From Myxococcota bacterium (GTDB lineage Bacteria; Myxococcota_A; Polyangia; Nannocystales; Nannocystaceae), in assembly GCA_039028615.1 (NCBI GenBank), contig JBCCHT010000009.1, positions 192,001 through 256,000 of the forward strand: a stretch of 64,000 nt of DNA, written 5' to 3'. Every line of letters begins with the position of its first letter. Positions within the stretch are counted from its first letter, which is position 1. Under the pieces are notes generated by a model. It was given only the letters and a program-made list of their open reading frames with translations, was not told the DNA's origin and searched no databases. Below, one piece after another: positions 6,877 through 47,102 of the stretch. A program made the translations under genes and the position numbers.

Positions 6877-9800
6877 ATGCCCGCGATCTATCCGCAGACC
6901 CTATCCGGTGGTTCCGTCGTTGCGCTCGCTCCGGCCACGGTGGCCAGCAACTGGGCGGACACGCTCGTCGTCAACGACCCGGACTTCGCGTTCAGCGACG
7001 AGCCTCCGGGGGGGCTTCCCGCCGATCGATTCATCTTCATCAGCGTTGCGTTTCGGCTGTTCCAGCCGGGCACCAACATCGAAGTGGCGGACAATATCGC
7101 TCATAACCTGCGGTTCAGCGCCGTACCGGCGCATTGGTTCGAGTCCGAGAATTTCGACCCCGCACTCACGGATCGAATCGTCAGTGGGGTTCTGCCGGAG
7201 CCGAGCGACCCGGTCGCGGGCGGAGGCACGGCCCAAACCATCGCGGCTCAGGGACTGGTCACGGTACTCGGAGAAGAGGTCTTTCCCATCTACGCGACGA
7301 TCTCGGCGACCAAGCCGGCCGACAACATTCGTCGGCTGGAGATCATGCTCGACGACGACAACGACGAGTACAACACGACGCACCAGTGGGTGCTGATCGT
7401 GCGCTCCGAGTACGACGTTCGGGAGCTGACGTGGGCGGTCGCCCCGGCGAGCGCGGCTCCCTCTGCGCCGTGGAGCGACTCGGAGCAGCCGTGGATTCAC
7501 ATTCCGAGCAACACGGTCGACGTCAACGGCGGGTTGGCGGTCCCACCGAATAGCGAGACGGATGTCGCGGTGCCGGTCACCAACTATGGCCCCGGCTCGC
7601 TGGAGATCCCGAGCGGAAACCTCGGTGCTGGTTCGTTGGGGTTCTCGATCGCGGCTCCGGTCACCATCCCGCCCGCGAGCACGGGCTCGATCGTCGTGCG
7701 GTTCTCGGCACCGGCCGCGGCCAGCGTTGTGGAGCTGAACGCGAGCGTTTCTGGAGATCCGGCCGCGATCGCGTTGTCGACCAACGCGGCCTCCGAGCAC
7801 AATTCCGAGCTCTCCATGTCGGCTACGGTCGGTGCCGTAGACCTGGCCCTGGTGCTCGACACCTCGGGCAGCATGAGATGGTCGCGCGACGGCCTCGTCA
7901 AGAACCCGGCGATCGGGGAACGTCGATGGGACGATTTCACCGAAGCCGCGGCCTCGCTGGCGAACGACTACGTCAACTTTCTCGGCGACGGGGTGGGGTC
8001 GCTCGACGCGGGTCGGCTCTCGGTCGCGTTGTTCCCCGGCGGAGCCCCCGACGGCATATTGCCCGGGTTCGACGGCTCTGCGCCGCTGACGAGCAGCACG
8101 GCGTCGAACCTGCGAAGTGCACTCGAGGCGATCACTCCCACCGGGAACACCCCGATGGGCGTGGGCATCGGCCGGGCCATGGGCATCGGCAACGACCTGG
8201 GGCTGTTCGAGGATTCGTCGAGCAGTCGGTGGATGGTGCTCATGTCCGACGGTGAGCACAACACGGGCCAGGACCCCGAGGAGTACGCCGACGGCAACGA
8301 CAACCCGCCGGATTTCTTCGACAAGAACGTCCGTCTGATCACGGTCGCGTACGGCCTCGCCGGAGAAACCGAGGTCGACCACGCGCGGCTCGAGGGGTTG
8401 GTGACCAGCACTGCCGCCGAAGAGGTGGCCGCCGAGATCCCCGACGGCGAGCGCTCGTCGGCAGTCGTTCACGGAACCGGCGATGTCGTGTCCAAGTTCC
8501 GAACACTGCTGACCAAGGTGCTCGGGGTCTCCGAGCTCGTGGACCCGTGGGCCTCGTTGAGCCCAGGTGCCTCCAATACGCACGAATTCACCGTGTCCAA
8601 GCTCGACGATGGGCTGAGCGCGATGGTGAACTGGCCGGGGGCGGCGGGGGGGAAACTCCTCCAGGTCTCGCTCGCCTCGCCGCTATGCGAGGTCTTCGAC
8701 GAAGGGGCGCTGTCCCGACACGAAGTGCTGCGCCTACACGGCTCGCGGCATCTCAAGAGCGTGTTCGTGCCCAAGGCCTTCGTCCATGGCGCCATCGATG
8801 GTCGCACCCGATACGGGACCTGGAAGCTCATCGTGCGCCACCTGGATGCGGGCAACGAGGGGGAAGCTCCGTCGCTCGACTACAACTACTCCATCCTCTG
8901 CGCATCGCGGCTGAGGCTCGGGCTCTCGCTCGCCGAGACGTCGCACGAGACCGGGCAACCGCTGCAGTTTTCGGCGAAGCTGCGACTATCGGGAGGCCTG
9001 CCGGTGGAGGGCGCAACGGTCAAGCTCGCGCTCACGCGGCCGACGAGCAGCTACAACAATGCGCTCGCGGGCACTTCGGTGGGGCCCAAGCAGCTCGAGC
9101 CGGTGTCGGAGCTCATGGCCGAAGTGGACCCGCTCGCGGGATGGGCCGTGAAGGCGCACGCCATCAAGCTGATGCTCGGCCAGGACTTGGTGATGCCGAC
9201 ACTGACCACCGAGGTCCCCATGGTCGAGACGGAGCCCGGGGTCTATCGATTCGAGTTCGAGCAGACGTTCTTGCCCGGGACCTATCAGGCCTTGATCGTA
9301 GCCACGGGGACCGCAGACGGAGAATCGTTCCGGCGAGAGGCGACCGTCCAGGCTCAGGTCGTGGCTCGACCGGAGCCCGAAGCCACGGAGATCGACTACC
9401 AGTTCGGTCTCGATGGGCAGCTGATCGCGCACGTGCGTCTCCAAGATGCGTACGGGAACACGGTGCTGGCCGAACTCGGTGATCGACCCGAGGTCAGCGT
9501 GGAGGCGCGGGGACTACCACCGTCCGGTGAGATCCAGACCAACTACGACGGCTGGTACACGCAGGCCTTTCCCGCCGCGACGGAGCCGACGCAGTTGGTC
9601 GTGCGCTACGACGATGAAATCGTCAGTGAGCCCGAGGTCATTCCAGTCCTCGAGCACATGCGGTGGATGGAAGAGGTGCTCTTCTACCGGAGCGCACCGA
9701 AAGAAGACGATGCGCACTCGGACCCGAAGGTGGCGCTGGGACCCGTCCGGGGCCCGACCGACCCGTTCGTTGCCCTCGGTGGTGCGGGGATGATCATGCT

Positions 9801-10191
9801 GAGCAACGAGTGCCGTCGCATCCGCGCGGAGCGAATCACCGTGTTCACGCGCCCCGAGAACAGGCGTTCCTATCTGGTCGAAGGGCTCTTGCCTGGCCGC
9901 AGGAATTGCCCGCGGTGGGTCACCCTCGGTCGCTCTTCAGGCGCCATCTCGTCGTTCGATGTTGCCGGGCTGGGAGTGCGTTGTCTTCAGGCGATTCGAA
10001 TCGTCGATACGACTGGAATCCTGCCGCACGACGAGTCCGATGCGGCCGGCGTGATGCTGCTGGGCGTTGGCTATACGCCGTCCCGCGGTCGCGATCGCAG
10101 ACGTCGGCGTCGGCGTCGCAGACGACGGTGGCTTCGTCGCCTCAACGAGTTCGTGGCCGACGCCGTCGATCGAACACGACGCGACGACTGA
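6877..10191 (+). CDS. Large VWA-domain protein with Ig-like regions, at the head of the eCIS locus
   Basis: MIDAS motif LVLDTSGSM, TPM, LMSDGEHN; Ig-like region VPVTNYGPGSLEI; ends 40 bp before the DUF4255 gene on the same strand. Confidence 0.85.
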   Translation: MPAIYPQTLSGGSVVALAPATVASNWADTLVVNDPDFAFSDEPPGGLPADRFIFISVAFRLFQPGTNIEVADNIAHNLRFSAVPAHWFESENFDPALTDRIVSGVLPEPSDPVAGGGTAQTIAAQGLVTVLGEEVFPIYATISATKPADNIRRLEIMLDDDNDEYNTTHQWVLIVRSEYDVRELTWAVAPASAAPSAPWSDSEQPWIHIPSNTVDVNGGLAVPPNSETDVAVPVTNYGPGSLEIPSGNLGAGSLGFSIAAPVTIPPASTGSIVVRFSAPAAASVVELNASVSGDPAAIALSTNAASEHNSELSMSATVGAVDLALVLDTSGSMRWSRDGLVKNPAIGERRWDDFTEAAASLANDYVNFLGDGVGSLDAGRLSVALFPGGAPDGILPGFDGSAPLTSSTASNLRSALEAITPTGNTPMGVGIGRAMGIGNDLGLFEDSSSSRWMVLMSDGEHNTGQDPEEYADGNDNPPDFFDKNVRLITVAYGLAGETEVDHARLEGLVTSTAAEEVAAEIPDGERSSAVVHGTGDVVSKFRTLLTKVLGVSELVDPWASLSPGASNTHEFTVSKLDDGLSAMVNWPGAAGGKLLQVSLASPLCEVFDEGALSRHEVLRLHGSRHLKSVFVPKAFVHGAIDGRTRYGTWKLIVRHLDAGNEGEAPSLDYNYSILCASRLRLGLSLAETSHETGQPLQFSAKLRLSGGLPVEGATVKLALTRPTSSYNNALAGTSVGPKQLEPVSELMAEVDPLAGWAVKAHAIKLMLGQDLVMPTLTTEVPMVETEPGVYRFEFEQTFLPGTYQALIVATGTADGESFRREATVQAQVVARPEPEATEIDYQFGLDGQLIAHVRLQDAYGNTVLAELGDRPEVSVEARGLPPSGEIQTNYDGWYTQAFPAATEPTQLVVRYDDEIVSEPEVIPVLEHMRWMEEVLFYRSAPKEDDAHSDPKVALGPVRGPTDPFVALGGAGMIMLSNECRRIRAERITVFTRPENRRSYLVEGLLPGRRNCPRWVTLGRSSGAISSFDVAGLGVRCLQAIRIVDTTGILPHDESDAAGVMLLGVGYTPSRGRDRRRRRRRRRRRWLRRLNEFVADAVDRTRRDD

Positions 10192-10231: not shown

Positions 10232-10843
10232 ATGGCCGCATTTACTGCCGTACGCGCCGTCAGTGACTCCATCGTGGGGTTTCTGAACGCACGCCACCAG
10301 ACGGAGGGCATGCCCGGCGAGGAGGGCGTGCGCTTCGCCGAGCGCTATCCCGCCACGATTCGGTTGGTCTCCAGCGGTGAGCTGGCCGACGACAACGCGA
10401 CACAGTCGTTCGAGCCTGCGCTGCTGCTGTACTTGTATCGCATCGGAGTCAACGAACAGCTGCGCACTGCGAACCGACTCGGCGACCAACGGCGCGGACC
10501 GATGCATCTCGATCTGCACTACATGCTCAGCGTCTGGTCGTCGTCGGCCGACACCGAGCACACCCTGATGACCTGGGCACTCCGCACCATTCAGGACAAC
10601 CCGGTCCTCGACTCGTCGTTCCTGAGCCCGGAAGGTATGTGGGAGCGACACGATGCGATCCAGCTGACGCCCGAGGAACTCACCAACGAAGACCTCCTGC
10701 GGCTGTGGGACGGGTTGGTGCCCTCGTATCGCATGAGCTACACGTACGTCGCTCGCGTGGTGACCATCGATCCCGCGGACCCCGAGACCTACGGCAACGT
10801 CATCGTTCGCGACATCACGGTGCGCGACGAGGAGAGAGACTGA
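10232..10843 (+). CDS. DUF4255 / Pvc16-Afp16-like tail terminator (cap)
   Basis: LLYLYRIGVN, LDLHYMLSVW, EHTLMTWALRTIQDNPVL, LWDGLVPSYRMSYTYVARVV; ATG 10232 is preferred to the track start. Confidence 0.9.
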   Translation: MAAFTAVRAVSDSIVGFLNARHQTEGMPGEEGVRFAERYPATIRLVSSGELADDNATQSFEPALLLYLYRIGVNEQLRTANRLGDQRRGPMHLDLHYMLSVWSSSADTEHTLMTWALRTIQDNPVLDSSFLSPEGMWERHDAIQLTPEELTNEDLLRLWDGLVPSYRMSYTYVARVVTIDPADPETYGNVIVRDITVRDEERD

Positions 10844-11677
10844 ATGCCCGCGGTGATCGAAATAGCCGATCGCGCGCTCGCGGGGATTCGTTTCGAGGAT
10901 GCCGCGACGCGGACCCCCGTCAGCGAGCCCTTGCACGTCAGCGCGCAGGGACTGTCGCTCTATCGGAATCATCGACACATCTACGTCGTACGCGAGGCGG
11001 CGGGGCTGGAGGCCCATGTTCATGCCGTGGGGGCCGCCCCCGCCCTTCCCGTGCCCGGCTTGCTGCCCTTCGAGGTCGAGGTACGCGACCCAACCGGCCT
11101 GTACCTCCCTCGTCGCTTCACCCTGGACCTTCCCCGGGTCGACCACGCGGACGACGACGACGCCGCGCATCGCCTGGTGAACGTGACGCTCTATCGCTCG
11201 CCGCTGGCCCCGAGCTCTCTGCATTGGGCGTTGGTGCGGGTGCGCCTGGAAGACGCGGCCGGAAACCCGGTGCCGGGGCTGGTGCGGGTGGTGTTCGAGC
11301 CCGCGGCGCCCGACGAGCCAGAAGTGCTGGGCATGGGGATGAGCGTGGTCGCCGATCCGCTCGCTGCGGAACTCGCCCGGCGTGCTCCCCCCGGCGGGCG
11401 CTGGGTGCACTTCGATGCGCGTCAGCACGGGGAGGTCTGTGTCCCCGTGGTCGGTCTATCGAGCACGGTGTGGAGCGATGGCTCCGGGACCGACCCGGAC
11501 ACGGTGACACTCGATGCGGTTCCCGTGGTGCTCGAGGTCATTCCGATGGCGACGGCCGGGGGCCTCCCCAATCCCGATCTCAGCGTCGATGCCGTCGCGG
11601 ACGACGACAATCGACACGATCTTCAACTACGCGTGGGCCAAGAGTTCGTCGTCGGCCCTCTCGAAGTAACCCTTTGA
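10844..11677 (+). CDS. eCIS-associated hypothetical protein (carboxypeptidase-regulatory-like/Ig-like)
   Basis: Abuts the DUF4255 gene and precedes the sheath; DPTGLYLPRRF, VRVRLEDAAGNPVPG. Confidence 0.7.
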   Translation: MPAVIEIADRALAGIRFEDAATRTPVSEPLHVSAQGLSLYRNHRHIYVVREAAGLEAHVHAVGAAPALPVPGLLPFEVEVRDPTGLYLPRRFTLDLPRVDHADDDDAAHRLVNVTLYRSPLAPSSLHWALVRVRLEDAAGNPVPGLVRVVFEPAAPDEPEVLGMGMSVVADPLAAELARRAPPGGRWVHFDARQHGEVCVPVVGLSSTVWSDGSGTDPDTVTLDAVPVVLEVIPMATAGGLPNPDLSVDAVADDDNRHDLQLRVGQEFVVGPLEVTL

Positions 11678-11719: not shown

Positions 11720-14161
11720 ATGCCCGAATACCTGGCGCCAGCCGTATACGTCGAAGAGACCAGTTTTCGGTCCAAGCCGCTCGAAGGGGTGAGTACGAGC
11801 ACGACTGCATTCGTCGGCCTCACCCGCCGTGGGCCCGTGACCACCGAGGTCGAGAACCTGTCCGATGAGGAGCGTGAACTCATCACGCCCGAGTTGGTGA
11901 CCAGCGTCCCCGACTTCGAGCGCCTGTATGGAGGGACGACTCCGCTCCAGCATGTCGGCGCAGACGAGCGCACCAACTACCTGGCACAGGCGGTGCGGGG
12001 CTTCTTTGCCAACGGCGGCCGTCGGCTCTACGTCGCGCGGGTGTTTCGACGCTCTGTGGGCACCCATGGGCGTGCCGCGAGTCGGTTCATCGTGGGGGCC
12101 GACGGGGACCCGGTTCGGGCGCGATTCGAGGCACGAACTCCCGGAGCGGCCGGCAACGGCCGGATCACCGTCACGCAGCTGACCGCGCCGGCGACCCCCA
12201 ACTCTCTGAACAACGCGCTCGAGGGGACGATGATCCGCACGGGCGCGCAAGACCCCCGCACGCCCAGCACGGGCCAAGGAGGTGTGCCCGACTTCCGGGT
12301 GGGCGCAGGGGCGGAGTTCGCTCTCGACGTCGATGGCAACCCGTTCTCGATCACGTTCGAAGGGCGTCGCGCGCAGGTCTCTACTCCCGCGGGGTTGCCC
12401 GAGCCGGTGGTGATCGCGGCGGGGGAGGCCGACCTCGAAGTCACCGTCAACGGCCTCACGCAGACCGTCTCGTTGCCCGTGGGGAACATCCCGCGCACGG
12501 AGCTGGCGCTGCGACTCAACGAAGCGCTGCAAGGCGGGGCGTTCGCGACCCTGACCGCCGGCGACGAGCTGGTGATCGGTAGCGAGATCGAAGGGGCGGA
12601 CTCGCGGGTGGCGGTGGCTGCCAATCCTTCCTTCGGGTTCCCAGCCGATGCTGCCGATGATGCGAGCGTCGACAGCAACGTCGCGAACCTCAACGCGGTC
12701 ACGGCCAACGAGATCAACGGATTACTCGCCGCCGCGGCCGCGCCGGTCGATGTCTCTCTAGATCCGGCCACGCTGCGGCTGGTGCTCACGACGCAATCGG
12801 TCGGCGCGGGCTCGCTCATCACGGTGGTGGACCCGGGGGCAGGCAACTCGGCCCATGCTGCCCTCGGTTTCACGCTCGGCGCCCAGACTCCGGGGCAAGA
12901 CGGGCAAGTGGTGCAGTACTACGTCAAGACCGGGTCGGCGTGGCTGGATGCGGGTGATAACCCCGGGGTCTTCGATCCCATGCCGGACGGTGGGGTCGAG
13001 TTCGTCTCGATCAACGTGGAGGCTCGAGACGCCGATGGCTTCCGGCAGAACTTCGAGGATCTGGCCCTATCTCCCGCTCACCCGAGCTACATCGGTGCCG
13101 TGATCGCGCCGATGCCCGCGCGACGACGGAGCCAGCTCGAGAACCTGGTCGCGCTGGTGGTCGAGGGCAACGTGACGCCGTTCCAGCTGCGAGAGGGGCT
13201 CCTCGGCGCGGCGGGGGTCGGTGGGGCCAATCCAGAGCAACGCGTGGCCGTCGCGCTGCCCATGACGGGCGGCAACGACGGTGACGAACCCTCGGCCGAG
13301 GAGTTCCGAGAGGCACTGAACGCCCTCGATGCCCTCGAGGGGGTCTCGATCGTTGCGGCTCCGGGCTCCAGCGCCAACCCGGCCCATGCGGCGATTCGCA
13401 ACCACGTCATCACCCACGTCGAGCAGCGCCGCGCCTACAAGATCGCCGTGCTCGATCCTCCCGAGGGGCAAACCCTCGGTGAAGTGCGGGGCGTTCGGGC
13501 GTCCTTCGATAGTCGCTACGCCGCGCTCTACTACCCGTGGCTCGTGGTACCCAACCCGGACTCCGCCCCGGGGAATCGCTCGCGTCCGGCCGAGATTCGC
13601 GTGCCGCCGTCGGGTCATATCTGTGGGGTCTATGCGCGGTCCGACGCCGAGCGAGGAGTGCACAAGGCTCCCGCCAACGAGGTCCTTCGCGGGGTCACGC
13701 GCTTCGAGACCAACATCAACATGCGTCAGCAAGAGGCGCTGAACCCCGAAGGCATCAACGCGCTGCGGTCTTTCCCCGGACGCGGCAACCGGATCTGGGG
13801 GGCTCGGCTCGCGTCTTCCGACCCCGAACTCAAGTACGTCAACGTGCGGCGCTACCTCAACTACATCGCCGCGACGCTCGACCGAGGCACGCAGTGGGTC
13901 GTGTTCGAGCCTAACGGTGAGCTGCTGTGGGCTCGCGTACGCTCGACGGTGAGAGACTTTCTGTACAACGAGTGGGTCGGGGGCGCGCTGCTGGGGAGCA
14001 CCCAGGACGAGGCCTTCTCGGCGCGGTGTGATCGCTCGATCATGACGCAGAACGACTTGGACAACGGTCGGCTCGTCTGCGAGGTCGGGATGGCGATCGT
14101 CAAGCCGGCGGAATTCGTAATTTTCCGAATTGGCCAGAAAACGGCCAACGCGAACGGATGA
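11720..14161 (+). CDS. Contractile tail sheath protein 1 with a large central insertion
   Basis: MPEYLAPAVYVEE, FFANGGRRLYVARV, YAALYYPWL, PPSGHICG, GVHKAPANE, LNPEGINALR, YVNVRR, WVVFEPN, KPAEFVIFRI. Confidence 0.97.
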   Translation: MPEYLAPAVYVEETSFRSKPLEGVSTSTTAFVGLTRRGPVTTEVENLSDEERELITPELVTSVPDFERLYGGTTPLQHVGADERTNYLAQAVRGFFANGGRRLYVARVFRRSVGTHGRAASRFIVGADGDPVRARFEARTPGAAGNGRITVTQLTAPATPNSLNNALEGTMIRTGAQDPRTPSTGQGGVPDFRVGAGAEFALDVDGNPFSITFEGRRAQVSTPAGLPEPVVIAAGEADLEVTVNGLTQTVSLPVGNIPRTELALRLNEALQGGAFATLTAGDELVIGSEIEGADSRVAVAANPSFGFPADAADDASVDSNVANLNAVTANEINGLLAAAAAPVDVSLDPATLRLVLTTQSVGAGSLITVVDPGAGNSAHAALGFTLGAQTPGQDGQVVQYYVKTGSAWLDAGDNPGVFDPMPDGGVEFVSINVEARDADGFRQNFEDLALSPAHPSYIGAVIAPMPARRRSQLENLVALVVEGNVTPFQLREGLLGAAGVGGANPEQRVAVALPMTGGNDGDEPSAEEFREALNALDALEGVSIVAAPGSSANPAHAAIRNHVITHVEQRRAYKIAVLDPPEGQTLGEVRGVRASFDSRYAALYYPWLVVPNPDSAPGNRSRPAEIRVPPSGHICGVYARSDAERGVHKAPANEVLRGVTRFETNINMRQQEALNPEGINALRSFPGRGNRIWGARLASSDPELKYVNVRRYLNYIAATLDRGTQWVVFEPNGELLWARVRSTVRDFLYNEWVGGALLGSTQDEAFSARCDRSIMTQNDLDNGRLVCEVGMAIVKPAEFVIFRIGQKTANANG

Positions 14162-14169
14162 GGTGAATC

Positions 14170-14643
14170 ATGAAGCGCACATCGCCCTACGGAAACTACA
14201 ACTTCACCGTCGACCTGAAGAGCGAGGGCGTCGACATCAGCAGTGCGTTCGGAGGGTTTTCGGACGTGTCGGGCCTGGGGACGGAGCTCACCGTCGCCGA
14301 GTACCGCAACGGTAACGACGACGAGATGCACGTGCGGAAGATTCCCGGCTTGCACTCGACGCCCGACGTGACCTGCAAACGCGGCGTACTCAACTCGAAG
14401 GATCTGTGGGAGTGGATCGAGAACACGCGGCTGCAGAGCGTCGGGCAGCAACGCAACGTCGTCATCACCATGAACGACGAAGCGGGCAAGGCGGTTCAGT
14501 CGTGGACTTTGTTCAACTGCATCCCGCTCAAGTACACGGGGCCGACCTTTGCCGGCAAAGGTGGTGGTGACGTGGCGATGGAGGAGCTGGTGTTGTCCTG
14601 CGAGGGGATTCGCCTCGACGGAGTAGGGCCGACCCGGAACTAG
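14170..14643 (+). CDS. Tail tube protein (T4 gp19-like; Afp1/5)
   Basis: PYGNYNFTV, FSDVSGL, EYRNG, KIPGL, KRGV, LWEWI, VAMEELVL. Confidence 0.95.
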   Translation: MKRTSPYGNYNFTVDLKSEGVDISSAFGGFSDVSGLGTELTVAEYRNGNDDEMHVRKIPGLHSTPDVTCKRGVLNSKDLWEWIENTRLQSVGQQRNVVITMNDEAGKAVQSWTLFNCIPLKYTGPTFAGKGGGDVAMEELVLSCEGIRLDGVGPTRN

Positions 14644-14652: not shown

Positions 14653-16224
14653 ATGCTACGCGGACTCGAATTCGAGACCTGGACCGCGCCGGTCGATCGC
14701 GCGCGGAACCGAGTGGATGTGGCGTGTTTCGTCGGGCTCGCCCGACGAAGCGAACGCGCTCTGCCTCCCTTGGTCCTCGCGTGGTTGGCTCGCGAGGGAT
14801 GGGTCGATGCCCCCGGCCAGCCGAAGTCCGAGGACGTTCGGTTCGGCGATACGTGGGCCCTCGATGACTCGCCACACCTGCCGATCCCCATCGACGATTG
14901 GTCCGCGTTCAAGCAGCTGTTCAGGGGGCGGTCCACTGCGGCCGATGGTGCGTCGGAGGTCGACTACCTGGCCGCCGCCGTTCGTTCGTTCTTCGTCCAG
15001 GGCGGGCGTCGCTGCTACGTGGTCGCGGTCGGGGCTCCGATGGCGTGGGATACCGAGCGTGTGCAGCGGCTGGAGGCTCTGCCTTCGATCCTGCCGCAGC
15101 TGTCGGGCAACGTCTCTGCGATCTCGGCCACCGAGCGGAGGGACTGGCGCGGCGTCGGCGTGCTGCACGGGGTGGAAGAAGCGTCGTGGTTGGCCTTGCC
15201 GGACCTCCCGTTCCTGGCCGCGGCCGACATCGTCGAACTCGAGCCCTTCGAGCCCGAGGAGCAGCCCTTCGATGCATTCGAGGAGTGCAGCGAACACCTG
15301 CCCGAGGTGCCTGAAACGGTGCGGTCCCGGGTCGCCGCTCCGCGCTGCGATTCCGAAGAGTACCGAGAGTGGGCGACGTGGATCGCCACCGCACGGCGCT
15401 TCCTCCAGTCGTTTCGACGCGACATGCAGCTGGTGGCGGCGGTTCCTCTGCCGCAACGGGGCTCCTGGGCAGCGCGAGATCTGCTCGGGGCCCTGGCCGA
15501 GTGGCGGATCTGGGGAGGCTCGGTGGTGGAGCCCGAGCACGCGTTCGCCAGTCGCTTCGTGCAGCTGGTCTACCCATGGCTGAGATGGAGCGGTTCGGCC
15601 GGGCTGCCCGAGGACATCGAGCCTCCCGACGGCACGTTCCTCGGCGTCTTGGCCCGAGCCACGCTCCAGCAGGGGGCGTATCGCAGCGCCGTCGGGCAGC
15701 CCATCCGAGAGCTGCGATCGGTCGTGCCGCCGCTTTCTCGCGCGCAGCAAGAGCAAGAAGGCCCCGATGGACGGGTGTTGCTGGAACGCATCTCGTTGTT
15801 GGGACCCTCGGTCGAGGGGCCCACGCTTCTTTCGGATGTCACCAGCGCCGAGGAGGAGGTCTGGCGAACGGCCAACATCGTGCGACTGCATGCCGTGTGG
15901 ATCCGTGCCCTGCGGCAGGCGGGGGAGACGATGGTGTTCGAGCCTTCGTCCGAGACGGTGTGGGCGGCGGTTCGTGATCGAGTGGACCAGGTCGGCCGTA
16001 TTCTGTTTCGAGACGGAGCATTGCGAGGGCGAAGCGCGGACGAGTCGTTCTCGGTGCGTTGCGATCGCAACACGATGTCGCAGGCCGACATCGATGCTGG
16101 TCGGCTGGTGGCCGAGGTCGGCTACCTTCCCGCGGCCCCGGTCGAGCGGATCTTCATCGCACTCGCGCTCTCCGAGGACCAGCGGGTCGACGTCGTTCGA
16201 GAACTCGCGGAGGGGCAATCATGA
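14653..16224 (+). CDS. Divergent tail sheath protein 2
   Basis: DVACFVG, AVRSFFVQGGRRCYVV, YPWL, PPDG, VFEP, FSVRCD, GRLVAEVGYLPAAPVERI. Confidence 0.88.
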   Translation: MLRGLEFETWTAPVDRARNRVDVACFVGLARRSERALPPLVLAWLAREGWVDAPGQPKSEDVRFGDTWALDDSPHLPIPIDDWSAFKQLFRGRSTAADGASEVDYLAAAVRSFFVQGGRRCYVVAVGAPMAWDTERVQRLEALPSILPQLSGNVSAISATERRDWRGVGVLHGVEEASWLALPDLPFLAAADIVELEPFEPEEQPFDAFEECSEHLPEVPETVRSRVAAPRCDSEEYREWATWIATARRFLQSFRRDMQLVAAVPLPQRGSWAARDLLGALAEWRIWGGSVVEPEHAFASRFVQLVYPWLRWSGSAGLPEDIEPPDGTFLGVLARATLQQGAYRSAVGQPIRELRSVVPPLSRAQQEQEGPDGRVLLERISLLGPSVEGPTLLSDVTSAEEEVWRTANIVRLHAVWIRALRQAGETMVFEPSSETVWAAVRDRVDQVGRILFRDGALRGRSADESFSVRCDRNTMSQADIDAGRLVAEVGYLPAAPVERIFIALALSEDQRVDVVRELAEGQS

Positions 16225-16745
16225 CGGGCTTCGTGGCCGAGGCGATGTCGCCGTTTCCCGCCTTTCGGTTCCAGGTGGACTTCCGCGAGCATCGACTCAC
16301 TCGCGGCGAACAGCCCGGGGACCTCGTACGCCTATGTCGGGGGTCGTTTTCCGAGTGCACCGGGCTCGAGGCGACCATGGAACCCAAGGTGATCAAGGAA
16401 GGCGGGCGCAACTATGGCGCGGCCCAGCGCGTGGGTGCAGTCACCTTCGGTAGCGTCGTGCTCAAGCGGGGCATGACCTCCAATGAAGATCTGTGGCGAT
16501 GGTTCAAGCTGGTCGCCAGAGGGGGCTACGCCTATCGGCTGACGGCGGACATCACCGTGCTCGGACCTTCGACGAGCGGTGGTGAGCCCGTCGCTCGTTG
16601 GGTCTGGCGCCTGCGGCACTGCTTGCCGACCAAGTTCAAGGCGCCGGACCTCGATGCCAAGGGCGACCAGGTCGCGATCGAGGAACTCCAGCTCGCCCAC
16701 GAAGGGCTCGACTTGTTGCAGGCACCGAGGGGAGGCTCGACGTGA
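16221..16745 (+). CDS. Tail tube protein 2 (gp19-like)
   Basis: PAFRFQVDF, FSECTGL, KEGGRN, LKRGM, LWRWF, PTKFKAPDLDA, VAIEELQLAHEG; ATG 16221 overlaps the sheath 2 stop. Confidence 0.93.
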   Translation: MTGFVAEAMSPFPAFRFQVDFREHRLTRGEQPGDLVRLCRGSFSECTGLEATMEPKVIKEGGRNYGAAQRVGAVTFGSVVLKRGMTSNEDLWRWFKLVARGGYAYRLTADITVLGPSTSGGEPVARWVWRLRHCLPTKFKAPDLDAKGDQVAIEELQLAHEGLDLLQAPRGGST

Positions 16746-18085: not shown

Positions 18086-18255
18086 TGGATGTCGATATCG
18101 GTGAAGTGCAAGCACAAGTCGAGGCCCCTTCGGCCGAGCCCTCCGCGAGCTCGAGCCCGTCGTCTCGCGGCAAAGGGCTCACCGAGCTCGCCCACGACCA
18201 AGAACTCGCCGAGCGCCGAGCACAGCGGCTTCGCGATCGGCTACGGGCCGACTGA
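18085..18255 (+). CDS. Small 56-aa eCIS protein (Afp6-like position), absent from the ORF track
   Basis: MDVDIGEVQAQVEAPS...ERRAQRLRDRLRAD; TGATG coupling, RBS GAGGAGG; fills the gap before the hub gene. Confidence 0.75.
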   Translation: MDVDIGEVQAQVEAPSAEPSASSSPSSRGKGLTELAHDQELAERRAQRLRDRLRAD

Positions 18256-21572: not shown

Positions 21573-21962
21573 GTGAATCGTCGAGCACCACTCAGCTGGC
21601 CGTTGCTGCCCAGGCCCGATGCCGCGGGGCGGCTGCAGTTCCCCGCTTCGCTGGATGTCAGCGTGCAGGAGCGCATTCGTGTGTTGTTGAGCGTGCGGCC
21701 AGGGGAGCTGATGTTCCATCCCGAGTTCGGGGCGGGGCTGGACGAGCTGCTGGCCGAGCCCAATACGCTGGAGCTGCGCCGCGAGGTTCACGACCGCATC
21801 ACGGAGAGCCTGCGTCGCTGGGAGCCGCGGATCGATGTCGAGCGCGTCGATGTCGAGGAGATCGTCGGTCGCCCTACGCAGATTCGTGTGCGTATTTCGT
21901 ACCGCCTGCGGCGAACCGGTGCCCTCGCGAGCCTCGGGCTGACTCTGGAGACTGGGAGCTGA
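21573..21962 (+). CDS. GPW/gp25 family baseplate wedge protein (Afp9)
   Basis: IRVLLSVRPGELMFHPEFGAGL, LRRWEPRIDV. Confidence 0.95.
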   Translation: MNRRAPLSWPLLPRPDAAGRLQFPASLDVSVQERIRVLLSVRPGELMFHPEFGAGLDELLAEPNTLELRREVHDRITESLRRWEPRIDVERVDVEEIVGRPTQIRVRISYRLRRTGALASLGLTLETGS

Positions 21963-36497: not shown

Positions 36498-38275
36498 TCG
36501 TCGACCGTAGACGCGTAGGGCGGCTGAAGCTCCAGGCTTCCCGGTCCGAGCATGTGCCCTCCGCGGTAGCGGTGGTGCGCGAGGCCTTGAGGATCGCAAC
36601 GATGCCGGGCGACGGACAGTCGGGGCGCTTGTTCGTCCGTCGCGTGGACCTGGGCCGCATCGACTTGCGTCGCGGTGCACAAAGCGTCGCAAAGGCGCTG
36701 TCCGAGCAGATGCAGGCGTTGCGGGCTTCGGCGGTTCCGATCGCCTCGGCGCGCGCGAAAGAGGCCGAGGCTGTGTTTGTGCGGGACTCTTTCGAGGCGA
36801 CCGCGCTTGCGCTCTATCGCGCTTCGGCAGGGTGCTCGCTCGATGGGTGGGTTTGGTCGCGGATCGAACCCTCGTGGTCTGGATGCTCGCCCCGGCAGAT
36901 CGTCGCTCGAGCGTGGCAGAAGCTGGCCACCGAGCTCCAGGCCCCCGCTGCGATGGCGGGAGCCGTGGGCGCACTCCTCGATGGACGGCGTCTCGAGGCC
37001 GCGTGTGATGAACTCGATGCTCGAGATGGCCGGGTCCTGTGGACAGCGTCGCAGGCTAGCGGGCATCGCTCCGAGCCCACGAGCAATGGTGGTGATACGG
37101 CCGAGGTATTCGATCCGTTGCCGCCGGTCTGGCGTGATTCCATTCGTGGGCTGGTGCGCTCGTGGGGAGAATCGGACGCTCGGTCGCATTGGGTGATGCT
37201 GGCCGCACTCCGGGCCGCTCACCTGGGTTCGACTCATGGGCGCGTCGAACGAGTCGAAGCCCTGGTTCGGGCCTATGCCGACCCCGAGATCGATTGGGAT
37301 GCGCATCGGCCCTGGTACGCGGCTGGGCCGGGGGATGAAGAGCACCTCGGTCGATCGAAGCGAGAAGGAACGATGGTTGAGTCCGAACTCCCCGAGATTC
37401 GCCGGGTCTCGGACGAGGAGGCGCCCAATGCCGATTCGAGGCAGGTCCGAGCGAAGCTCGAGGTGTCGGAGCGAGAAAACACGGGGGGGTCTACGCGCAC
37501 CGAGAGTTCTTCGGGCGGGGATTACGAGGCCGCGAGGGGTGTCGAGCACGACTCAGTACCGGTCGAGGCCGAGCGAGGGCAACCGGAACGAGAGCGGTTC
37601 GCGTGGGGAGCTGGCGCGCACCCGGTGCCGACCGCTTGCGGGGGTCTCTGGTTCATTCTCGCCATCCTCGAGCGGTTGGGCATCGAAGCCTTCATCGATG
37701 TCCATCCCCATCTCGACGGGACGGCACTGGCCGCCAGGGTACTGCGGCGGGTCGCCGATGAACTCGAGGTGCCCGGTGATGACCCGGCTCGGGTAGTTCT
37801 CGGCATACCACCCGCGAGCGATCGGCCGACCCCATTCGTCGTCCCTCCCGCATGGCTGAGCGGCGTCGAGACGATACATGCCAGATGGTCCGCTGCGGCT
37901 CATCGAGTGGTGTTGGTGGACTCCGACGAGCGTCCCTTGGCGATGTTGACGGCACCCGGGAGCGCCATGGTGTCGCAGTTCGAGGATCTGCCTCTCTACG
38001 GCCTCGACCACCCCATCGATGCCCTCGTGGAGGCGTGGTTCGCCGCCGTTTGCCGATGGCTCGAGCGTCACACCGAGATGAGCCTCGCCGAGCTCGTACT
38101 CCGGTCGGGAGCCGTCGCCTGGACACGGACCCACATCGACCTCGTCTTCGATCTTCAGCACACCGACATCCGCGTTCGCCTGGCGATGCTCGATCTGGAT
38201 CCGGGTTGGGTCCCGTGGCTCGGGCGCGTCGTGGCTTTTCACTACGTTCATCGAGGAGTGTTGGGCGATGGTTGA
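36494..38275 (+). CDS. CIS tape-measure-like protein (Afp14)
   Basis: Sits just before the ATPase; GGLWFIL and C-terminal LRSGAV..TRTHIDLVFDL...LDLDPGWVPWLGRVVAFHY. Confidence 0.78.
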   Translation: MIVDRRRVGRLKLQASRSEHVPSAVAVVREALRIATMPGDGQSGRLFVRRVDLGRIDLRRGAQSVAKALSEQMQALRASAVPIASARAKEAEAVFVRDSFEATALALYRASAGCSLDGWVWSRIEPSWSGCSPRQIVARAWQKLATELQAPAAMAGAVGALLDGRRLEAACDELDARDGRVLWTASQASGHRSEPTSNGGDTAEVFDPLPPVWRDSIRGLVRSWGESDARSHWVMLAALRAAHLGSTHGRVERVEALVRAYADPEIDWDAHRPWYAAGPGDEEHLGRSKREGTMVESELPEIRRVSDEEAPNADSRQVRAKLEVSERENTGGSTRTESSSGGDYEAARGVEHDSVPVEAERGQPERERFAWGAGAHPVPTACGGLWFILAILERLGIEAFIDVHPHLDGTALAARVLRRVADELEVPGDDPARVVLGIPPASDRPTPFVVPPAWLSGVETIHARWSAAAHRVVLVDSDERPLAMLTAPGSAMVSQFEDLPLYGLDHPIDALVEAWFAAVCRWLERHTEMSLAELVLRSGAVAWTRTHIDLVFDLQHTDIRVRLAMLDLDPGWVPWLGRVVAFHYVHRGVLGDG

Positions 38276-40310
38276 GCGAACGACAGTGGCGAGCCTGGCC
38301 CTGGCTGCGATTGCAATGAGGGTCCCCGAATCCCTGGGCGCCGAGTTTCAGGGGATGGTGTCGAAACTCGACCCGGCGGTGTCCCGAAGTTCGCACGCGT
38401 TGGCCGATGCCCTGGCCCGCTTGCTCGAGCAGCCAAGTCCAGCCGACGAGCGGCTCGTGCGGGTGGGTGACGCGTTGGGCCTGCGGGAACTCGAGATCCT
38501 GACCGTTGCGCTGATCGTCGAGGGAGAGCGTGAGCCGATGGTCGGTCGGCTGCTCTCCCGTCTGCAGGACCCGGTCGGTGGCAGTCGGCCGACGCTCGGA
38601 CTGCTTCGCACCATGTTCGAGTGGGCGACCCCCGGAGACGTGATCGATGAGCTCCTGACCGGCGTCGCAGTGCAGACGGGTCTGCTGGAAGTCGTACCCC
38701 CAGGACCTCCGATGCCCGAGCGCGCGCTGCAGGTCCCGCCTCACTTGGTAATGGCTGTGCGGGGCCAAGCCGCGTCGGTCCCCGGAGCCACCGTTGGCCC
38801 CGATCCACGCTCGCCCCCGCTGACGCCGTCGTTGCTCGCGGATGCGCGGAGGTACGCCCATGGCCTCGAGCATCGCCCTCGCGCCGCCTTGACGATTCGG
38901 GCGGGATGCGACGCCGAACGGCGGGCCGCGGCCGAGGCGGTGGCTGCTGCACTCGGGCTCGCGCCGGTTTTCTTGCGAGATTGTCCCCTCGACGGGCTAG
39001 TCCCATGGCTGCTGCTCGAAGGCCTCGTCCCCGTATTCGAACGTGAACTCGCTCCCTCAGAGCGATGCGTCCTACCCGAGCTCGTCGGCTACTCGGGGCC
39101 GGTCTTGGCGACCTTGGGCCCGGACGGGGGCATCGTGGTCACCGGGAGCACCCCGATGTCGTGGTCCGTGCCCGTGCCGTCCGCAGCGGAGCGCAGAGAG
39201 TTGTGGGAGCGAGCGGTCGGAGATTCGGCCATGGCCGAGCGCCTCTCGCGAGGGCATCGACATGGGTGTGCTCGCATCGCGGAACTCGGTCGTCTCGCCC
39301 GGCAGCGCGCCGCCATGGATGCGCGCTCGGTCGCGAGAATCTCCGATGTGCTCGAAGCGTCGTGGTCGAGCGACGCCGGGGGGCTGGATGCGTTGGCGGA
39401 GCCCATGCGAGCCCGGATTGACGGCGACAGCTTGGTCTTGCCCGACCGGATTCAGCAGAGCCTCGACCTGTTTGTGCTTCGCTGTCGCGCGCGGGAAGGA
39501 CTCACCGATGGTCTGGGGAGTGCGTCCTCCACCCGCTACCGACCTGGGGTTCGGGGACTGCTGGTAGGGCCCTCGGGGACGGGCAAGACCCTGGCCGCCG
39601 GGTGGCTGGCGACCCAGCTGGACCTGCCCCTGTATCGAGTCGATGCCGCTTCGGTGGTGTCCAAGTACATCGGCGAGACCGAAAAAAACCTGGCGCAGCT
39701 GCTCGCGCGGGCAGAGGACGCGGAGGTCGTGCTGCTATTCGACGAAGCCGATTCACTGTTCGGCAAACGTACCGAGGTCAAGCAGAGCAACGACCGGTTT
39801 GCCAATGCTCAGACCAACTACTTGCTCCAGCGGATCGAGTCCTACGACGGCATCGTCGTACTCACGAGCAACAGCCGCTCGCGGTTCGACTCTGCGTTCA
39901 CTCGACGGCTGGACTTCGTGATCGACTTTCCCGCGCCGGAGCCCGAACAGCGTCGAGACTTGTGGGAACGGCATCTCGGCGAGGAGCACGACATCGATCG
40001 CTCCGAGCTCAACCGGCTGGCCGCGACCATCGATCTGTGCGGCGGTCACATACGCAACGTGGTGCTCTGTGCCGCGGTGCTGGCCAAGTCCGAGTCGCGC
40101 CGGGTCGGTTTTCGCGACCTCATTCGCGGGTTGGAGCTGGAGATGCTCAAGCTCAACCGCCAGGTGCCAGCCTCGATGTACGGCCAGCGCAGCGGAAGCC
40201 GAGTGCTTCGCAAGGGGCGTCGAGCACGGGCAGGTTCGGTCTCGGCTCGGGCCAACGGTGACGGCACAGAGCCCGTCGTCGTGTTGCAGGGGGGTGACGT
40301 GAGAGGCTGA
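38268..40310 (+). CDS. eCIS AAA+ ATPase (Afp15/Pvc15)
   Basis: GPSGTGKT, VVSKYIGETEKNL, LLFDEADSLFGKR, DRFAN, YLLQRIE, AFTRR; the first AAA module is degenerate. Confidence 0.95.
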   Translation: MVERTTVASLALAAIAMRVPESLGAEFQGMVSKLDPAVSRSSHALADALARLLEQPSPADERLVRVGDALGLRELEILTVALIVEGEREPMVGRLLSRLQDPVGGSRPTLGLLRTMFEWATPGDVIDELLTGVAVQTGLLEVVPPGPPMPERALQVPPHLVMAVRGQAASVPGATVGPDPRSPPLTPSLLADARRYAHGLEHRPRAALTIRAGCDAERRAAAEAVAAALGLAPVFLRDCPLDGLVPWLLLEGLVPVFERELAPSERCVLPELVGYSGPVLATLGPDGGIVVTGSTPMSWSVPVPSAAERRELWERAVGDSAMAERLSRGHRHGCARIAELGRLARQRAAMDARSVARISDVLEASWSSDAGGLDALAEPMRARIDGDSLVLPDRIQQSLDLFVLRCRAREGLTDGLGSASSTRYRPGVRGLLVGPSGTGKTLAAGWLATQLDLPLYRVDAASVVSKYIGETEKNLAQLLARAEDAEVVLLFDEADSLFGKRTEVKQSNDRFANAQTNYLLQRIESYDGIVVLTSNSRSRFDSAFTRRLDFVIDFPAPEPEQRRDLWERHLGEEHDIDRSELNRLAATIDLCGGHIRNVVLCAAVLAKSESRRVGFRDLIRGLELEMLKLNRQVPASMYGQRSGSRVLRKGRRARAGSVSARANGDGTEPVVVLQGGDVRG

Positions 40311-45406: not shown

Positions 45407-46032
45407 CAATGAACACGATTGATGAACTACGTCAGGCCCTTGCTGCATTGCTGCCCGGAGCGCTTCGGAAGCTCGTCGCCAGGATTCGAGAAGGAGAAGC
45501 GCGCGGCATCTATTCGTTCGTGCTCTATCCGTCGTCAGGGTTTCGTGACATCGGTACGGCTTTCTCTTCCAGACGGACGCTCGCGGAGGCCTACGAAAAA
45601 GGTCAGGCTCTCAACGCCGAGTTGGAGGCGATGATGAAGGAACATCCCGATCTCCAGCTGAACGATCTCTCCTACACGAGTTCGGAGGCCTACTACGAGG
45701 TCAACGCCTGCGAATGGCACTTCATCAGTCTCTTCCAGGAGGAGTTGGCTGAAGTGAATCGGACTATCGACCGCGTCTATTCGCTGCTACAGGATCAGGG
45801 CGTCGACTCCGCGACCATCAACTCGACTTTCGAGGAGTTGTCGGTGGAAGCCATCAAACGACTCAAGAGCGAGGGGGCCTTCTCAGCGCCCACGTTTGAG
45901 GACGATGTCTTGCTGGGAGTTCAGTTCCCGGATTCGAGCGATCAGGAACTCGTGGTTCGAGTTTCAGCGATTCTAAACTCGCCAGCTTGGCATACGAAGA
46001 TCATCCAGAACAGCAAGGAAGTCGACGAGTGA
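45403..46032 (+). CDS. Probable immunity protein (DUF4303-like)
   Basis: ATGA overlap with the toxin stop; acidic, ~209 aa; IYSFVLY..., NACEWHF. Confidence 0.7.
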   Translation: MTMNTIDELRQALAALLPGALRKLVARIREGEARGIYSFVLYPSSGFRDIGTAFSSRRTLAEAYEKGQALNAELEAMMKEHPDLQLNDLSYTSSEAYYEVNACEWHFISLFQEELAEVNRTIDRVYSLLQDQGVDSATINSTFEELSVEAIKRLKSEGAFSAPTFEDDVLLGVQFPDSSDQELVVRVSAILNSPAWHTKIIQNSKEVDE

Positions 46033-47102
46033 CGAGTCCGTCCGTAGCAAAACCTCATTCGATGGATGGCCGTGAGCCGCTGGCTATGTTGAGTTCGCTT
46101 CGTGACGGCCGTCGCACGGCGCGGGAGCTGCAGCTGCCGGGAGCCGACCTGCGGGGCGCCGACCTCACCAAGCTCCGCGCCGACGGTCTCGACCTCACGG
46201 GCGCCAATCTTCGCGGTACCACGCTGTCCCGTGTCCGCTGGGTCGGTTGTCGCTTACTCGACGCCGATCTTTCCAACGCTGACCTCGACCGCGCGGTCCT
46301 ACGAACGTGCGAACTCTCTGGCGCGCGCGCGAGCGGAGCCCGGCTGACCCACGCCCGGATCGAGAACGACAACGCTCAGGGAGCCGACTTCGGAGGAGCC
46401 GACTTCACCGACGCCTCGCTCGTCGATACCAATCTATCTCGAGCCCGGCTACGCAAGGCGCAACTTCGGCGGGCCAATGCGTCGGGAGTCATCCTCCGAG
46501 GAGCCGACCTCCGAGGAGCATGCTTGGCCGACGCGGACCTCAGCGATGCCGACCTCCGAGGCGCCGATCTGACGGATGCGGATCTTCGTGGGGCCGACCT
46601 CCGCGGCGCGGACCTGCGAGGGGCCATCATGGCCGACGCATGTCTCGACGGCGCTGAACTTTCGGGGACCCGGCGCGACGATGCCCCACCCCAAATGCCG
46701 CAGGAGCTGCAGCCACTCAGCACGGCGGTCAGCCCCCTCATCGTCGAGGTCCTGACCCAGCTACGGCAACACGGGCACGTCCCCAAGAACGCCGGCGACC
46801 GGTTACTACAGAGCATCCAGGATAGCCCGCTGGTACGCCAAACGGTCGCCGCCTCACCGGAACAGACAGATTCGTCCGGATTTCATCGAACGGTGTCTGC
46901 GGTAATGCGGGCCTTGGGAGGTGCGCAGGAGGACGTGCTCGAGCAAGCGGCCGAGTCCCTTCGCGGAGATTCGCGCGAACCGTCGCCCGGCGTGGCCGAC
47001 TTGATCCGTCGGGTCGCGGTCGAAATGGGGATGGACGCCGATACCAATCCCGAGGACCTACTGTCGAAGCTCACCGGGCAGCCACGGTCCGACGCGGAGT
47101 AG
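46029..47102 (+). CDS. Pentapeptide repeat protein with a helical C-terminal domain
   Basis: Many A(D/N)LxG/x repeats (ADLRG ADLTD ADLRG); GTGA overlap with the immunity gene stop. Confidence 0.88.
   Translation: MTSPSVAKPHSMDGREPLAMLSSLRDGRRTARELQLPGADLRGADLTKLRADGLDLTGANLRGTTLSRVRWVGCRLLDADLSNADLDRAVLRTCELSGARASGARLTHARIENDNAQGADFGGADFTDASLVDTNLSRARLRKAQLRRANASGVILRGADLRGACLADADLSDADLRGADLTDADLRGADLRGADLRGAIMADACLDGAELSGTRRDDAPPQMPQELQPLSTAVSPLIVEVLTQLRQHGHVPKNAGDRLLQSIQDSPLVRQTVAASPEQTDSSGFHRTVSAVMRALGGAQEDVLEQAAESLRGDSREPSPGVADLIRRVAVEMGMDADTNPEDLLSKLTGQPRSDAE

What the first reader, a model, noticed from the sequence alone, without database searches (positions are those of the whole stretch)
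6877..47102. Complete atypical eCIS operon in a probable myxobacterium, with no lysis genes visible
Seen: about 24 co-oriented genes with ATGA/GTGA/TGATG overlaps or gaps of 42 bp or less, covering all core contractile-tail parts plus ATPase, tape measure and toxin-immunity. No holin, endolysin, capsid or TssJLM gene is recognisable. Known: this gene set defines Afp/PVC/MAC-type eCIS, and some CIS (Anabaena tCIS, Streptomyces CIS) act while membrane-anchored. Inference: this could be a poorly characterised cell-retained or membrane-tethered subtype used in predation, kin competition or programmed death.
Basis: partly seen in the sequence, partly recalled or inferred. Interest (0 to 1): 0.8.

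Follow-up and report, generated by a model that had tools for sequence, protein, structure and literature searches.

The report
PAAR-less injection system with membrane-hairpin tip
This is an intact 24-gene phage-tail-like injection machine of a widespread but apparently untested type in a myxobacterium; where related machines encode their spike tip, it encodes an unknown protein with a greasy end that likely docks the needle on a membrane, and a predicted nuclease toxin lies near the end of the cluster.

Summary
The operon is real: 24 intact co-oriented genes, gaps of 42 bp or less, in a myxobacterium. It is a lineage II contractile injection system (CIS) whose gene content fits subtype IIb, catalogued in silico in 2019 and listed for Myxococcus xanthus DK1622. 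I found no experimental study of IIb. The missing lysis genes say little: two other lineage II loci I fetched have none annotated either. The tape measure is unconfirmed. The useful result is g12 (20036-21565), a 509-aa protein with no family or fold match. It sits in the slot PAAR fills elsewhere: spike upstream in 69 of 69 loci, gp25 downstream in 83 of 83. It has no signal peptide and carries a Cys-bracketed hydrophobic segment (222 of 222 close homologues; 7 of 8 slot proteins from other genomes). The spike ends in an invariant YTPGxGNxW. A complex prediction gives only weak support for g12 binding the spike (0.40, best control 0.00). Best reading: g12 replaces PAAR and docks the particle spike-first on the producer's inner membrane, delivering a DUF4157 nuclease (about 40%). 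Rival: release by lysis, with the hairpin entering the target (about 30%).

The parts
6877..10191 (+). g1, 1104 aa, vWA domain (MIDAS-like DTSGSM) with beta-rich regions; accessory, possible adhesin
   Evidence: Weak VWA hit, E 4e-4, below cut-off; homologue (36%) in the same position in G477 only
10232..10843 (+). g2, Pvc16/Afp16 cap (tail terminator)
   Evidence: PF14065 E 1e-32
10844..11677 (+). g3, conserved, no family
   Evidence: Follows Pvc16 in most related loci; no Pfam hit
11720..14161 (+). g4, main sheath, 813 aa
   Evidence: PF04984/PF17482; best PDB matches 9EZM, 8BKY, 8BL4 at E<1e-85, against <=1e-45 for Afp3, All3325 and Pvc2
14170..14643 (+). g5, tube 1
   Evidence: PF06841, TIGR02241
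14653..16224 (+). g6, divergent second sheath
   Evidence: PF17482 weak, PHROG sheath; 32% to g4
16221..16745 (+). g7, tube 2
   Evidence: PF06841
16742..18085 (+). g8, Afp7-type tube initiator with low-complexity tail
   Evidence: PF19266 E 3e-22
18085..18255 (+). g9, conserved 56-aa protein
   Evidence: Homologues in L016, L019, L143; similar-sized ORFs in this slot elsewhere; not DUF6760
18268..19365 (+). g10, gp27-like hub (N-half of the split VgrG)
   Evidence: PF05954, NF033848
19362..20042 (+). g11, gp5/gpV spike (C-half of the split VgrG), ending in YTPGAGNVW
   Evidence: PF04717; Y,T,P,G,G,N,W invariant in 63 of 63 aligned spikes
20036..21565 (+). g12, 509 aa, family-less protein in the PAAR slot; Ig-like core and a Cys-bracketed hydrophobic segment (about aa 466-505); proposed spike-tip and membrane-docking protein
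21573..21962 (+). g13, gp25 baseplate wedge
   Evidence: PF04965
21966..24200 (+). g14, the single baseplate J (Afp11)
   Evidence: PF04865, TIGR02243; best PDB match 9GTP
24202..26607 (+). g15, Afp12/gpI-type wedge with a long N-terminal extension
   Evidence: PF09684, TIGR02242, NF053768
26604..27512 (+). g16, Cis13-like baseplate-binding protein
   Evidence: NF053767 E 6e-10; hhalign to the g18 family 95.6%
27526..30084 (+). g17, Cis13/Cis19-like, duplicate of g18
   Evidence: NF053767; 31% to g18 over 701 aa
30095..32764 (+). g18, Cis19/TssK/phage-RBP shoulder-fold protein
   Evidence: All3314 (Cis19) E 0.004; Foldseek top hit 7B5H, E 4e-3; VIA 4L92 Z 8.9, rmsd 4.4, 128 aligned
32778..36497 (+). 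g19, 1239 aa, similar N-terminal motif seen by eye, coiled-coil region; conserved
   Evidence: No family hit; conserved in order
36494..38275 (+). g20, conserved gene upstream of the ATPase; tape-measure role unconfirmed
   Evidence: C-terminal DxxPxWVPxL motif in 9 of 9 aligned; no PF19268 and no PDB hit
38268..40310 (+). g21, Afp15-type AAA+ ATPase
   Evidence: PF00004
40310..45406 (+). g22, 1698 aa putative effector: DUF4157 (HExxH), long helical region, TM segment (about aa 1070-1110), Ntox1, C-terminal AHH...N...H motif (predicted nuclease)
   Evidence: PF13699, PF15500; TM scan; motif invariant in 4 of 4 aligned tips; no Pfam AHH hit
45409..46032 (+). g23, 207 aa, putative immunity protein
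   Evidence: Adjacent to g22; DUF4303 23.5 bits against cut-off 23
46062..47102 (+). g24, pentapeptide-repeat protein; link to the CIS uncertain
   Evidence: PF00805; only related hit lies on the opposite strand upstream of the G206 locus

Best explanation
The operon encodes a lineage II contractile injection system without PAAR, likely of subtype IIb, in which g12 likely caps the spike in place of PAAR and is predicted to dock the particle spike-first on the producer's inner membrane through a hydrophobic hairpin, so that firing would deliver a predicted DUF4157 nuclease toxin into a touching cell without lysis of the producer. Shown: gene identities and order; no PAAR match; g12 fixed between spike and gp25; its conserved hydrophobic segment and lack of a signal peptide; the invariant spike end. 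Inferred: g12-spike binding (weak prediction), hairpin topology, which membrane it enters, toxin loading and activity, immunity by g23. Component odds: a CIS 0.97; subtype IIb 0.85; g12 spike-associated 0.6; whole mechanism as stated 0.4.
For: Gene content fits IIb: split afp8, one afp11, no afp10, afp12/13-like genes. In a IIa locus and a Streptomyces locus the order is spike-PAAR-gp25. Here it is spike-g12-gp25 in 69 of 69 loci with room upstream and 83 of 83 with room downstream, out of 90 loci that include duplicates; 60 of 62 leave no gap for another gene. The spike end varies with the slot: YTPGxGNxW in 63 of 63 aligned, against ...VKIN and ...IRIN in the two PAAR loci. Complex prediction of spike trimer (aa 100-226) with g12: weak support, score 0.40, best of 3 controls 0.00, runs 0.36/0.40/0.72, contacts agreeing by at least 14%, partner pLDDT at least 70. 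The mark was reached by 116 of 157 solved and 2 of 215 mismatched pairs, but at 0.60 or under by only 18 of the 157 and by both mismatches. 222 of 222 close homologues have a 19-residue KD window >=2.0 (221 within the last 60 aa); none has an N-terminal signal-like stretch; 194 of 222 are net positive after the segment. Under the positive-inside rule (textbook knowledge) that fits both ends staying cytoplasmic. Distant homologues keep the Cys...CIP bracket, some with over 100 residues after it. Precedent for membrane-bound CIS with DUF4157 toxin-immunity pairs: Halogeometricum (PMC11566945). DUF4157-TM-nuclease cargo: Tme (PMC11126660).
Against: The complex pass is weak and in the band where passes are more often wrong unless likely beforehand. 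The model shows one helix (472-493) at pLDDT 63-79, not a clear hairpin. The hydrophobicity count is partly circular, because that motif is in the search profile. G467 has an otherwise collinear locus whose slot protein lacks the segment (1 of 8). No trans-envelope or peptidoglycan-hydrolase gene is in the locus, so it is unexplained how the needle would cross wall and outer membrane. The genome already has a canonical T6SS for contact killing. A 500-aa globular cap is a blunt tip. No named IIb sequence could be fetched, and the quick J tree does not show the g12 loci as one clade. Afp6, said to be present in IIb, was not found by DUF6760.
Confidence: 0.4

Rival explanations
1. A free eCIS released by lysis (toxin-driven, stress-driven or by unlinked genes). 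g12 caps the spike, and its hydrophobic segment is shielded until it inserts into the target membrane, doing PAAR's piercing job and helping the TM-bearing toxin across. g16-19 recognise the target.
For: Same slot and spike evidence as the best explanation. Four peripheral genes, of which g18 has a phage receptor-binding shoulder fold, suit target recognition. Lysis genes are also unannotated in other lineage II loci. Release by lysis is the canonical route (PMC10598620). Geller et al. suggest that the toxins may contribute to lysis. The other eCIS in this genome has an Rv2525c-like glycoside hydrolase beside it.
Against: No phage lysozyme (PF00959) in the genome. The one PF04020 hit lies among purine-synthesis and housekeeping genes. 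No chaperone for the hydrophobic segment was recognised.
Confidence: 0.3
2. g12 is a membrane adaptor that recruits cytoplasmic particles through the baseplate rather than the spike, as CisA does in Streptomyces, and the system acts on the producer (regulated death or development). The spike's conserved end would close the tip by itself.
For: Cytoplasmic, CisA-dependent firing in S. coelicolor (PMC12237407). The best sheath and baseplate PDB matches are lineage II systems (assignment of 8BKY and 9GTP to Streptomyces recalled). The complex support for spike binding is weak.
Against: CisA is bitopic with an extracytoplasmic domain and sits in the fibre slot. g12 has about 16 residues after its segment and sits in the PAAR slot. 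A putative immunity gene argues against a self-directed toxin.
Confidence: 0.2
3. A cryptic or decaying locus, or a prophage tail remnant.
For: Patchy distribution: no g12 match in 5 of 5 same-genus genomes, 7 of 72 in the family.
Against: All 24 ORFs are intact and tightly coupled. No capsid or terminase hits. The gene order is conserved across phyla.
Confidence: 0.05

Closest known systems
eCIS subtype IIb (Chen et al. 2019, PMC6899500; in silico only)
   Same: Split afp8, single afp11, no afp10, divergent afp12/afp13, no detectable afp14. Listed for M. xanthus DK1622, M. fulvus, Sorangium, Corallococcus, Archangium and Minicystis. g12 homologues occur in Sorangium and Archangium.
   Different: Afp6 not detected here. 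This locus adds a vWA gene and a duplicated Cis19-like gene. The paper's section 10 finds no domains in the subtype-specific genes and proposes no role for the gene in the PAAR slot. Its figures could not be seen.
Halogeometricum borinquense CIS / archaeal T6SS (PMC11566945)
   Same: Best sheath match in PDB is 9EZM, an identifier that occurs in that paper. DUF4157 toxin-immunity pairs. No TssJLM.
   Different: Two cis11 genes and a six-TM candidate anchor; an archaeal envelope. No g12 relative among solved structures.
Streptomyces coelicolor CIS with CisA (subtype IId; PMC12237407, PMC10020575)
   Same: Lineage II; membrane recruitment through an accessory hydrophobic protein.
   Different: IId has a fused VgrG and PAAR. 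CisA is bitopic and lies in the fibre slot.
Anabaena tCIS (PMC8894136)
   Same: g18 resembles the crown protein Cis19/All3314 at its N-terminus.
   Different: tCIS anchors through a Cis13 TM helix. g16-19 have no window above KD 1.73.
S. davawensis CIS effector Tme (PMC11126660)
   Same: DUF4157, coiled-coil and TM regions, C-terminal nuclease; an architecture like g22.
   Different: Tme has an EndA-type nuclease, and that CIS has a PAAR tip.
SalCIS (clade Ib; PMC13266070)
   Same: A CIS proposed to be associated with the inner membrane, with no particle release detected.
   Different: Clade Ib, with a Sec-exported 3-TM hydrolase (SalCis20); nothing similar is recognised here.

Membership tests
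eCIS superfamily (Afp/PVC/MAC-like) | Core set: tube, sheath, Afp7, Afp8, Afp9, Afp11, Afp15, Afp16 in one locus | tested here: met
eCIS superfamily (Afp/PVC/MAC-like) | DUF4157 cargo at the 3' end | tested here: met
   g22 PF13699; Geller 2021
eCIS superfamily (Afp/PVC/MAC-like) | Particles act outside the cell after lysis | not testable with these tools
   Needs imaging
eCIS subtype IIb | afp8 split into gp27 and gp5 ORFs | tested here: met
   g10 + g11
eCIS subtype IIb | Single afp11 | tested here: met
   g14 only; the IIa reference pWB1 has two
eCIS subtype IIb | afp10 (PAAR) absent | tested here: met
   No hit in the locus; PF05488 0 matches in the 96.7% complete genome, control rang in 3 of 14; no room between spike and gp25
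eCIS subtype IIb | Divergent afp12 and afp13 present | tested here: met
   NF053768 on g15; NF053767 on g16-18, all below cut-off
eCIS subtype IIb | afp6 present | tested here: inconclusive
   g9 and four same-slot ORFs miss DUF6760, which hits the pWB1 control. Equating DUF6760 with Chen's Afp6 profile is my assumption.
eCIS subtype IIb | afp14 generally undetected | tested here: met
   PF19268 0 matches
eCIS subtype IIb | Groups with named IIb loci in phylogeny | tested here: inconclusive
   Named IIb plasmid not held. The quick J tree puts four non-g12 J proteins together (97), but monophyly of the g12 loci is neither shown nor excluded; the clade test did not finish.
T6SS i-iii | TssJLM, TssB/C, Hcp and ClpV in the locus | tested here: not met
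   a separate T6SS lies on contig C34
Anabaena-type tCIS | Cis13 with a transmembrane anchor | tested here: not met
   Hydropathy scan: best window 1.73 in g17, none in g16, g18, g19
Streptomyces IId CIS | Fused VgrG, PAAR, bitopic CisA in the fibre slot | tested here: not met
R-type tailocin / prophage | Lysis cassette and/or capsid genes | tested here: not met
   No such Pfam or PHROG hits among the 24 genes

The most novel reading that the evidence does not exclude
A whole CIS lineage spread over several phyla has replaced PAAR with a 500-residue spike cap of a new family. Its Cys-bracketed hydrophobic hairpin plugs the needle tip directly into the producer's inner membrane without Sec or a membrane complex. 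This would be a new, independently evolved anchoring mode that turns an eCIS into a contact-dependent weapon, and it should be testable in M. xanthus DK1622.
Probability: 0.3. Interest if true: 0.8.

Novelty: new member of a known kind. Interest (0 to 1): 0.5.

Why it matters
PAAR tips are near-universal on CIS spikes (established knowledge). Chen et al. noted in 2019 that subtype IIb lacks one and left the reason open. This work names the gene that takes the slot, a large family with no Pfam model (703 50%-identity clusters at E<=1e-30), and ties it to a conserved spike end and a hydrophobic segment. That makes the question testable with single deletions, and IIb is listed in a model myxobacterium. 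The locus itself is one more member of a catalogued class, and the lack of lysis genes is unremarkable.

Tried and rejected
Absence of lysis genes as evidence of retention: rejected, because comparison loci lack annotated ones too. The genome-wide lysis search covered only three families: PF00959 0 matches; PF05838 0 matches with a silent control, so uninformative; PF04020 1 weak match in a housekeeping context. DUF4280 gave 0 matches with a silent control. g12 against PDB sequences, Foldseek PDB and viral and the ESM Atlas: no named match. VIA gave only Ig-like hits at background level: top Z 7.5, rmsd 3.5, 120 aligned; the T6SS cargo domain BtaeB-NTD Z 7.1, rmsd 3.4, 121 aligned, treated as a lead only. 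These blanks do not show a new fold. The GTDB pattern scan with g12 alone gave one weak hit that was not followed up. The second homologue search returned nearly the same set. g19 in the Atlas and the g16 profile against PDB: nothing named. The toxin tip against Pfam and PDB: nothing; the AHH/HNH reading is recalled from the motif. No sigma-70 promoter or terminator at 6400-7000. No RNA holder listed. A taxon look-up gave no names. Earlier findings: none in three look-ups. The careful tree and the clade test timed out.


Full report
Observation. The window is G000:C9:192001-256000 of a 12.27 Mb, 94-contig genome, 96.7% complete. It is a myxobacterium by 65 MYXO-CTERM matches against 0 of 14 controls. 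Family scans give cap (g2), two sheaths (g4, g6), two tubes (g5, g7), tube initiator (g8), a VgrG split into hub and spike (g10, g11), gp25 (g13), one baseplate J (g14), an Afp12-type wedge (g15), CIS13-like N-termini (g16-18), an AAA ATPase (g21) and a DUF4157 protein (g22). No lysis, capsid or TssJLM family was hit.

Class. Chen et al. 2019 (PMC6899500; passages, section 10, Table S3 and supplement searches read; Figs 4B and S4 not visible, and they may bear on the gene-order comparison) define subtype IIb by a split afp8, one afp11, divergent afp12/13 and sole absence of afp10. They list IIb loci in M. xanthus DK1622, M. fulvus HW-1, Minicystis, Sorangium So0157-2, Corallococcus and Archangium. 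The window meets these features. Afp6, said to be in IIb, was not found with DUF6760, and no named IIb sequence could be fetched, so I put IIb at 0.85. The gene order recurs in the 52 metagenome and viral loci of 8 kb or more, as far as each reaches (52 of 90 fetched, some duplicates, all found through g12). It also recurs in full in G152, from vWA to ATPase in G477, and with the ATPase block moved in a Rhodococcus opacus plasmid. Distribution is patchy: g12 in 0 of 5 same-genus genomes, 7 of 72 in the family (2 close, 5 distant) and 5 of 400 in the phylum, while Pvc16_N is in 37 of 73 family genomes. Searches found no experimental study of a IIb system or of this gene. The library lacks most subscription papers.

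Lysis genes. Their absence is real but uninformative. The IIa locus on pWB1 and a PAAR-bearing Streptomyces plasmid locus have none annotated in the stretches fetched. Three lysis families were searched genome-wide: no phage lysozyme, an uninformative GH108 blank and one holin-like hit in a housekeeping region. An unlinked lysis route is therefore not excluded.

The informative gene is g12. In the two PAAR-bearing loci the order is spike, PAAR, gp25. In g12 loci the spike is upstream in 69 of 69 with room and gp25 downstream in 83 of 83, and 60 of 62 leave no gap for another ORF. The family is large (703 representatives at E<=1e-30, 1590 at 1e-3), with named members in Sorangium, Archangium, Vitiosangium, Thauera and Leptolyngbya. 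The model is confident (pLDDT 88, pTM 0.82) and has an Ig-like core, but no match above background. Among 222 close homologues (450-700 aa; P0086-88 and out-of-range lengths dropped), all have a strongly hydrophobic 19-mer, 221 within the last 60 residues; none has a signal-like N-terminus; 194 are net positive after the segment. This count is partly circular. Conserved Cys468 and Cys503 bracket the segment. Seven of 8 slot proteins from other genomes keep it, three with over 100 residues behind it, which fits a hairpin better than a tail anchor; G467 lacks it. The spike ends in YTPGxGNxW in 63 of 63 aligned sequences, with variants such as YSPGVGNLL in the distant subclade, whereas the two PAAR-partnered spikes end in ...VKIN and ...IRIN. 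A prediction of the spike C-terminal trimer with g12 gave weak support: 0.40, best control 0.00, runs 0.36/0.40/0.72, at least 14% of contacts shared, partner pLDDT at least 70. The mark was reached by 116 of 157 solved and 2 of 215 mismatched pairs, but at 0.60 or under by only 18 of 157 and by both mismatches.

Periphery and cargo. g16 and the g17/g18 family share an N-terminal domain (hhalign 95.6%). The g18 profile hits All3314 at E 0.004, which is the tCIS crown protein Cis19 (PMC8894136, passages). The g18 model matches 7B5H first in Foldseek and phage receptor-binding and TssK shoulder folds in VIA (Z 8.9, rmsd 4.4, 128 aligned). None of g16-19 has a clear TM helix, so the tCIS anchor is absent. 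g17/g18 is a local duplication shared with G477, G474 and L019. g22 has DUF4157 with HExxH, a long helical region, a TM segment, Ntox1 and a tip with AHH...N...H invariant in 4 of 4 aligned. The nuclease reading is recalled from the motif, with no Pfam hit. The layout resembles Tme of S. davawensis (PMC11126660, passages and section 10) and the long-linker DUF4157 toxins of Geller et al. (PMC8213781, passages). g23 is a plausible immunity gene.

Mechanism. I commit to g12 as the PAAR replacement that docks the particle spike-first on the producer's inner membrane, followed by contact-dependent delivery (0.4). Precedents for membrane-bound CIS without TssJLM are Halogeometricum (PMC11566945, passages), SalCIS (PMC13266070, abstract and passages), tCIS and CisA (PMC12237407 and PMC10020575, passages). 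None uses a gene in the PAAR slot in the passages read. Against: weak complex support, an unresolved hairpin, one locus without it, no envelope-crossing gene, and a separate canonical T6SS on C34. The main rival is lytic release with insertion into the target (0.3; canonical route in PMC10598620, passages). A CisA-like adaptor with self-directed firing gets 0.2. The quick J tree (29 rows) clusters labels non-randomly but does not establish one origin. PMC12210884 (passages) did not mention IIb. The BtaeB search was seen as a listing only.

Verdict. A real, intact operon and a new member of a catalogued but apparently untested subtype. Interest 0.5.

Noticed in passing
G000:C15:144500-175500 (L011-L013): A second eCIS of different layout: sheath, tube, T4_baseplate, Pvc16, ATPase, split spike, gp25, two large baseplate genes, DUF4157 with a YbjN neighbour. 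It is followed by weak GH75, glycosyltransferase-methyltransferase and Rv2525c-like glycoside hydrolase genes, the last a candidate wall hydrolase.
   Followed up: partly
G000:C34:2195-21000 (L014-L015): A third, divergent contractile-tail cluster (sheath, base_V, gp25, baseplate J) with no Pvc16 match; most genes have no family.
   Followed up: partly
G000:C19:147573-149120: An orphan 515-aa sheath gene beside metK with no other tail genes nearby.
   Followed up: partly
G000:C34:119700-144943 (L127-L128): A canonical T6SS (TssM by PF14331; ClpV-, TssF/G-, Hcp-, TssL-, TssB-like genes judged by eye) running off the contig end. No PF05488 PAAR match anywhere in the assembly.
   Followed up: partly
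G000:C23:59746-59964 and C2:187074-187271: Two orphan DUF4157 genes away from any CIS locus; possible trans-loaded cargo.
   Followed up: no
L034:17309-17635, L065:17048-17356 and others: 24 of 33 related loci have a gap over 450 bp between the Afp12-type gene and g16, in most holding a conserved 100-150 aa beta-rich ORF that this window lacks.
   Followed up: no
G467:C1 (L149-L150): A collinear locus whose slot protein is 311 aa and lacks the hydrophobic segment; a natural variant or a decayed copy.
   Followed up: partly
L116:17587 onward and L117:1692-9869 (G152): Two large TM-bearing helical proteins follow the ATPase, each followed by an LRR-containing gene; likely cargo-immunity pairs. 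No DUF4157 hit in the parts scanned.
   Followed up: partly
L105-L114: Ten IMG/VR 'viral' contigs carry this CIS gene order, probably eCIS filed as viruses.
   Followed up: no
window 10130-10191: g1 ends in a run of about ten arginines just before its last helix.
   Followed up: no
window 57685-58713 (-): YhgA-like transposase about 10 kb downstream. GC is about 0.66 over the operon and 0.68-0.71 beyond 48 kb.
   Followed up: no
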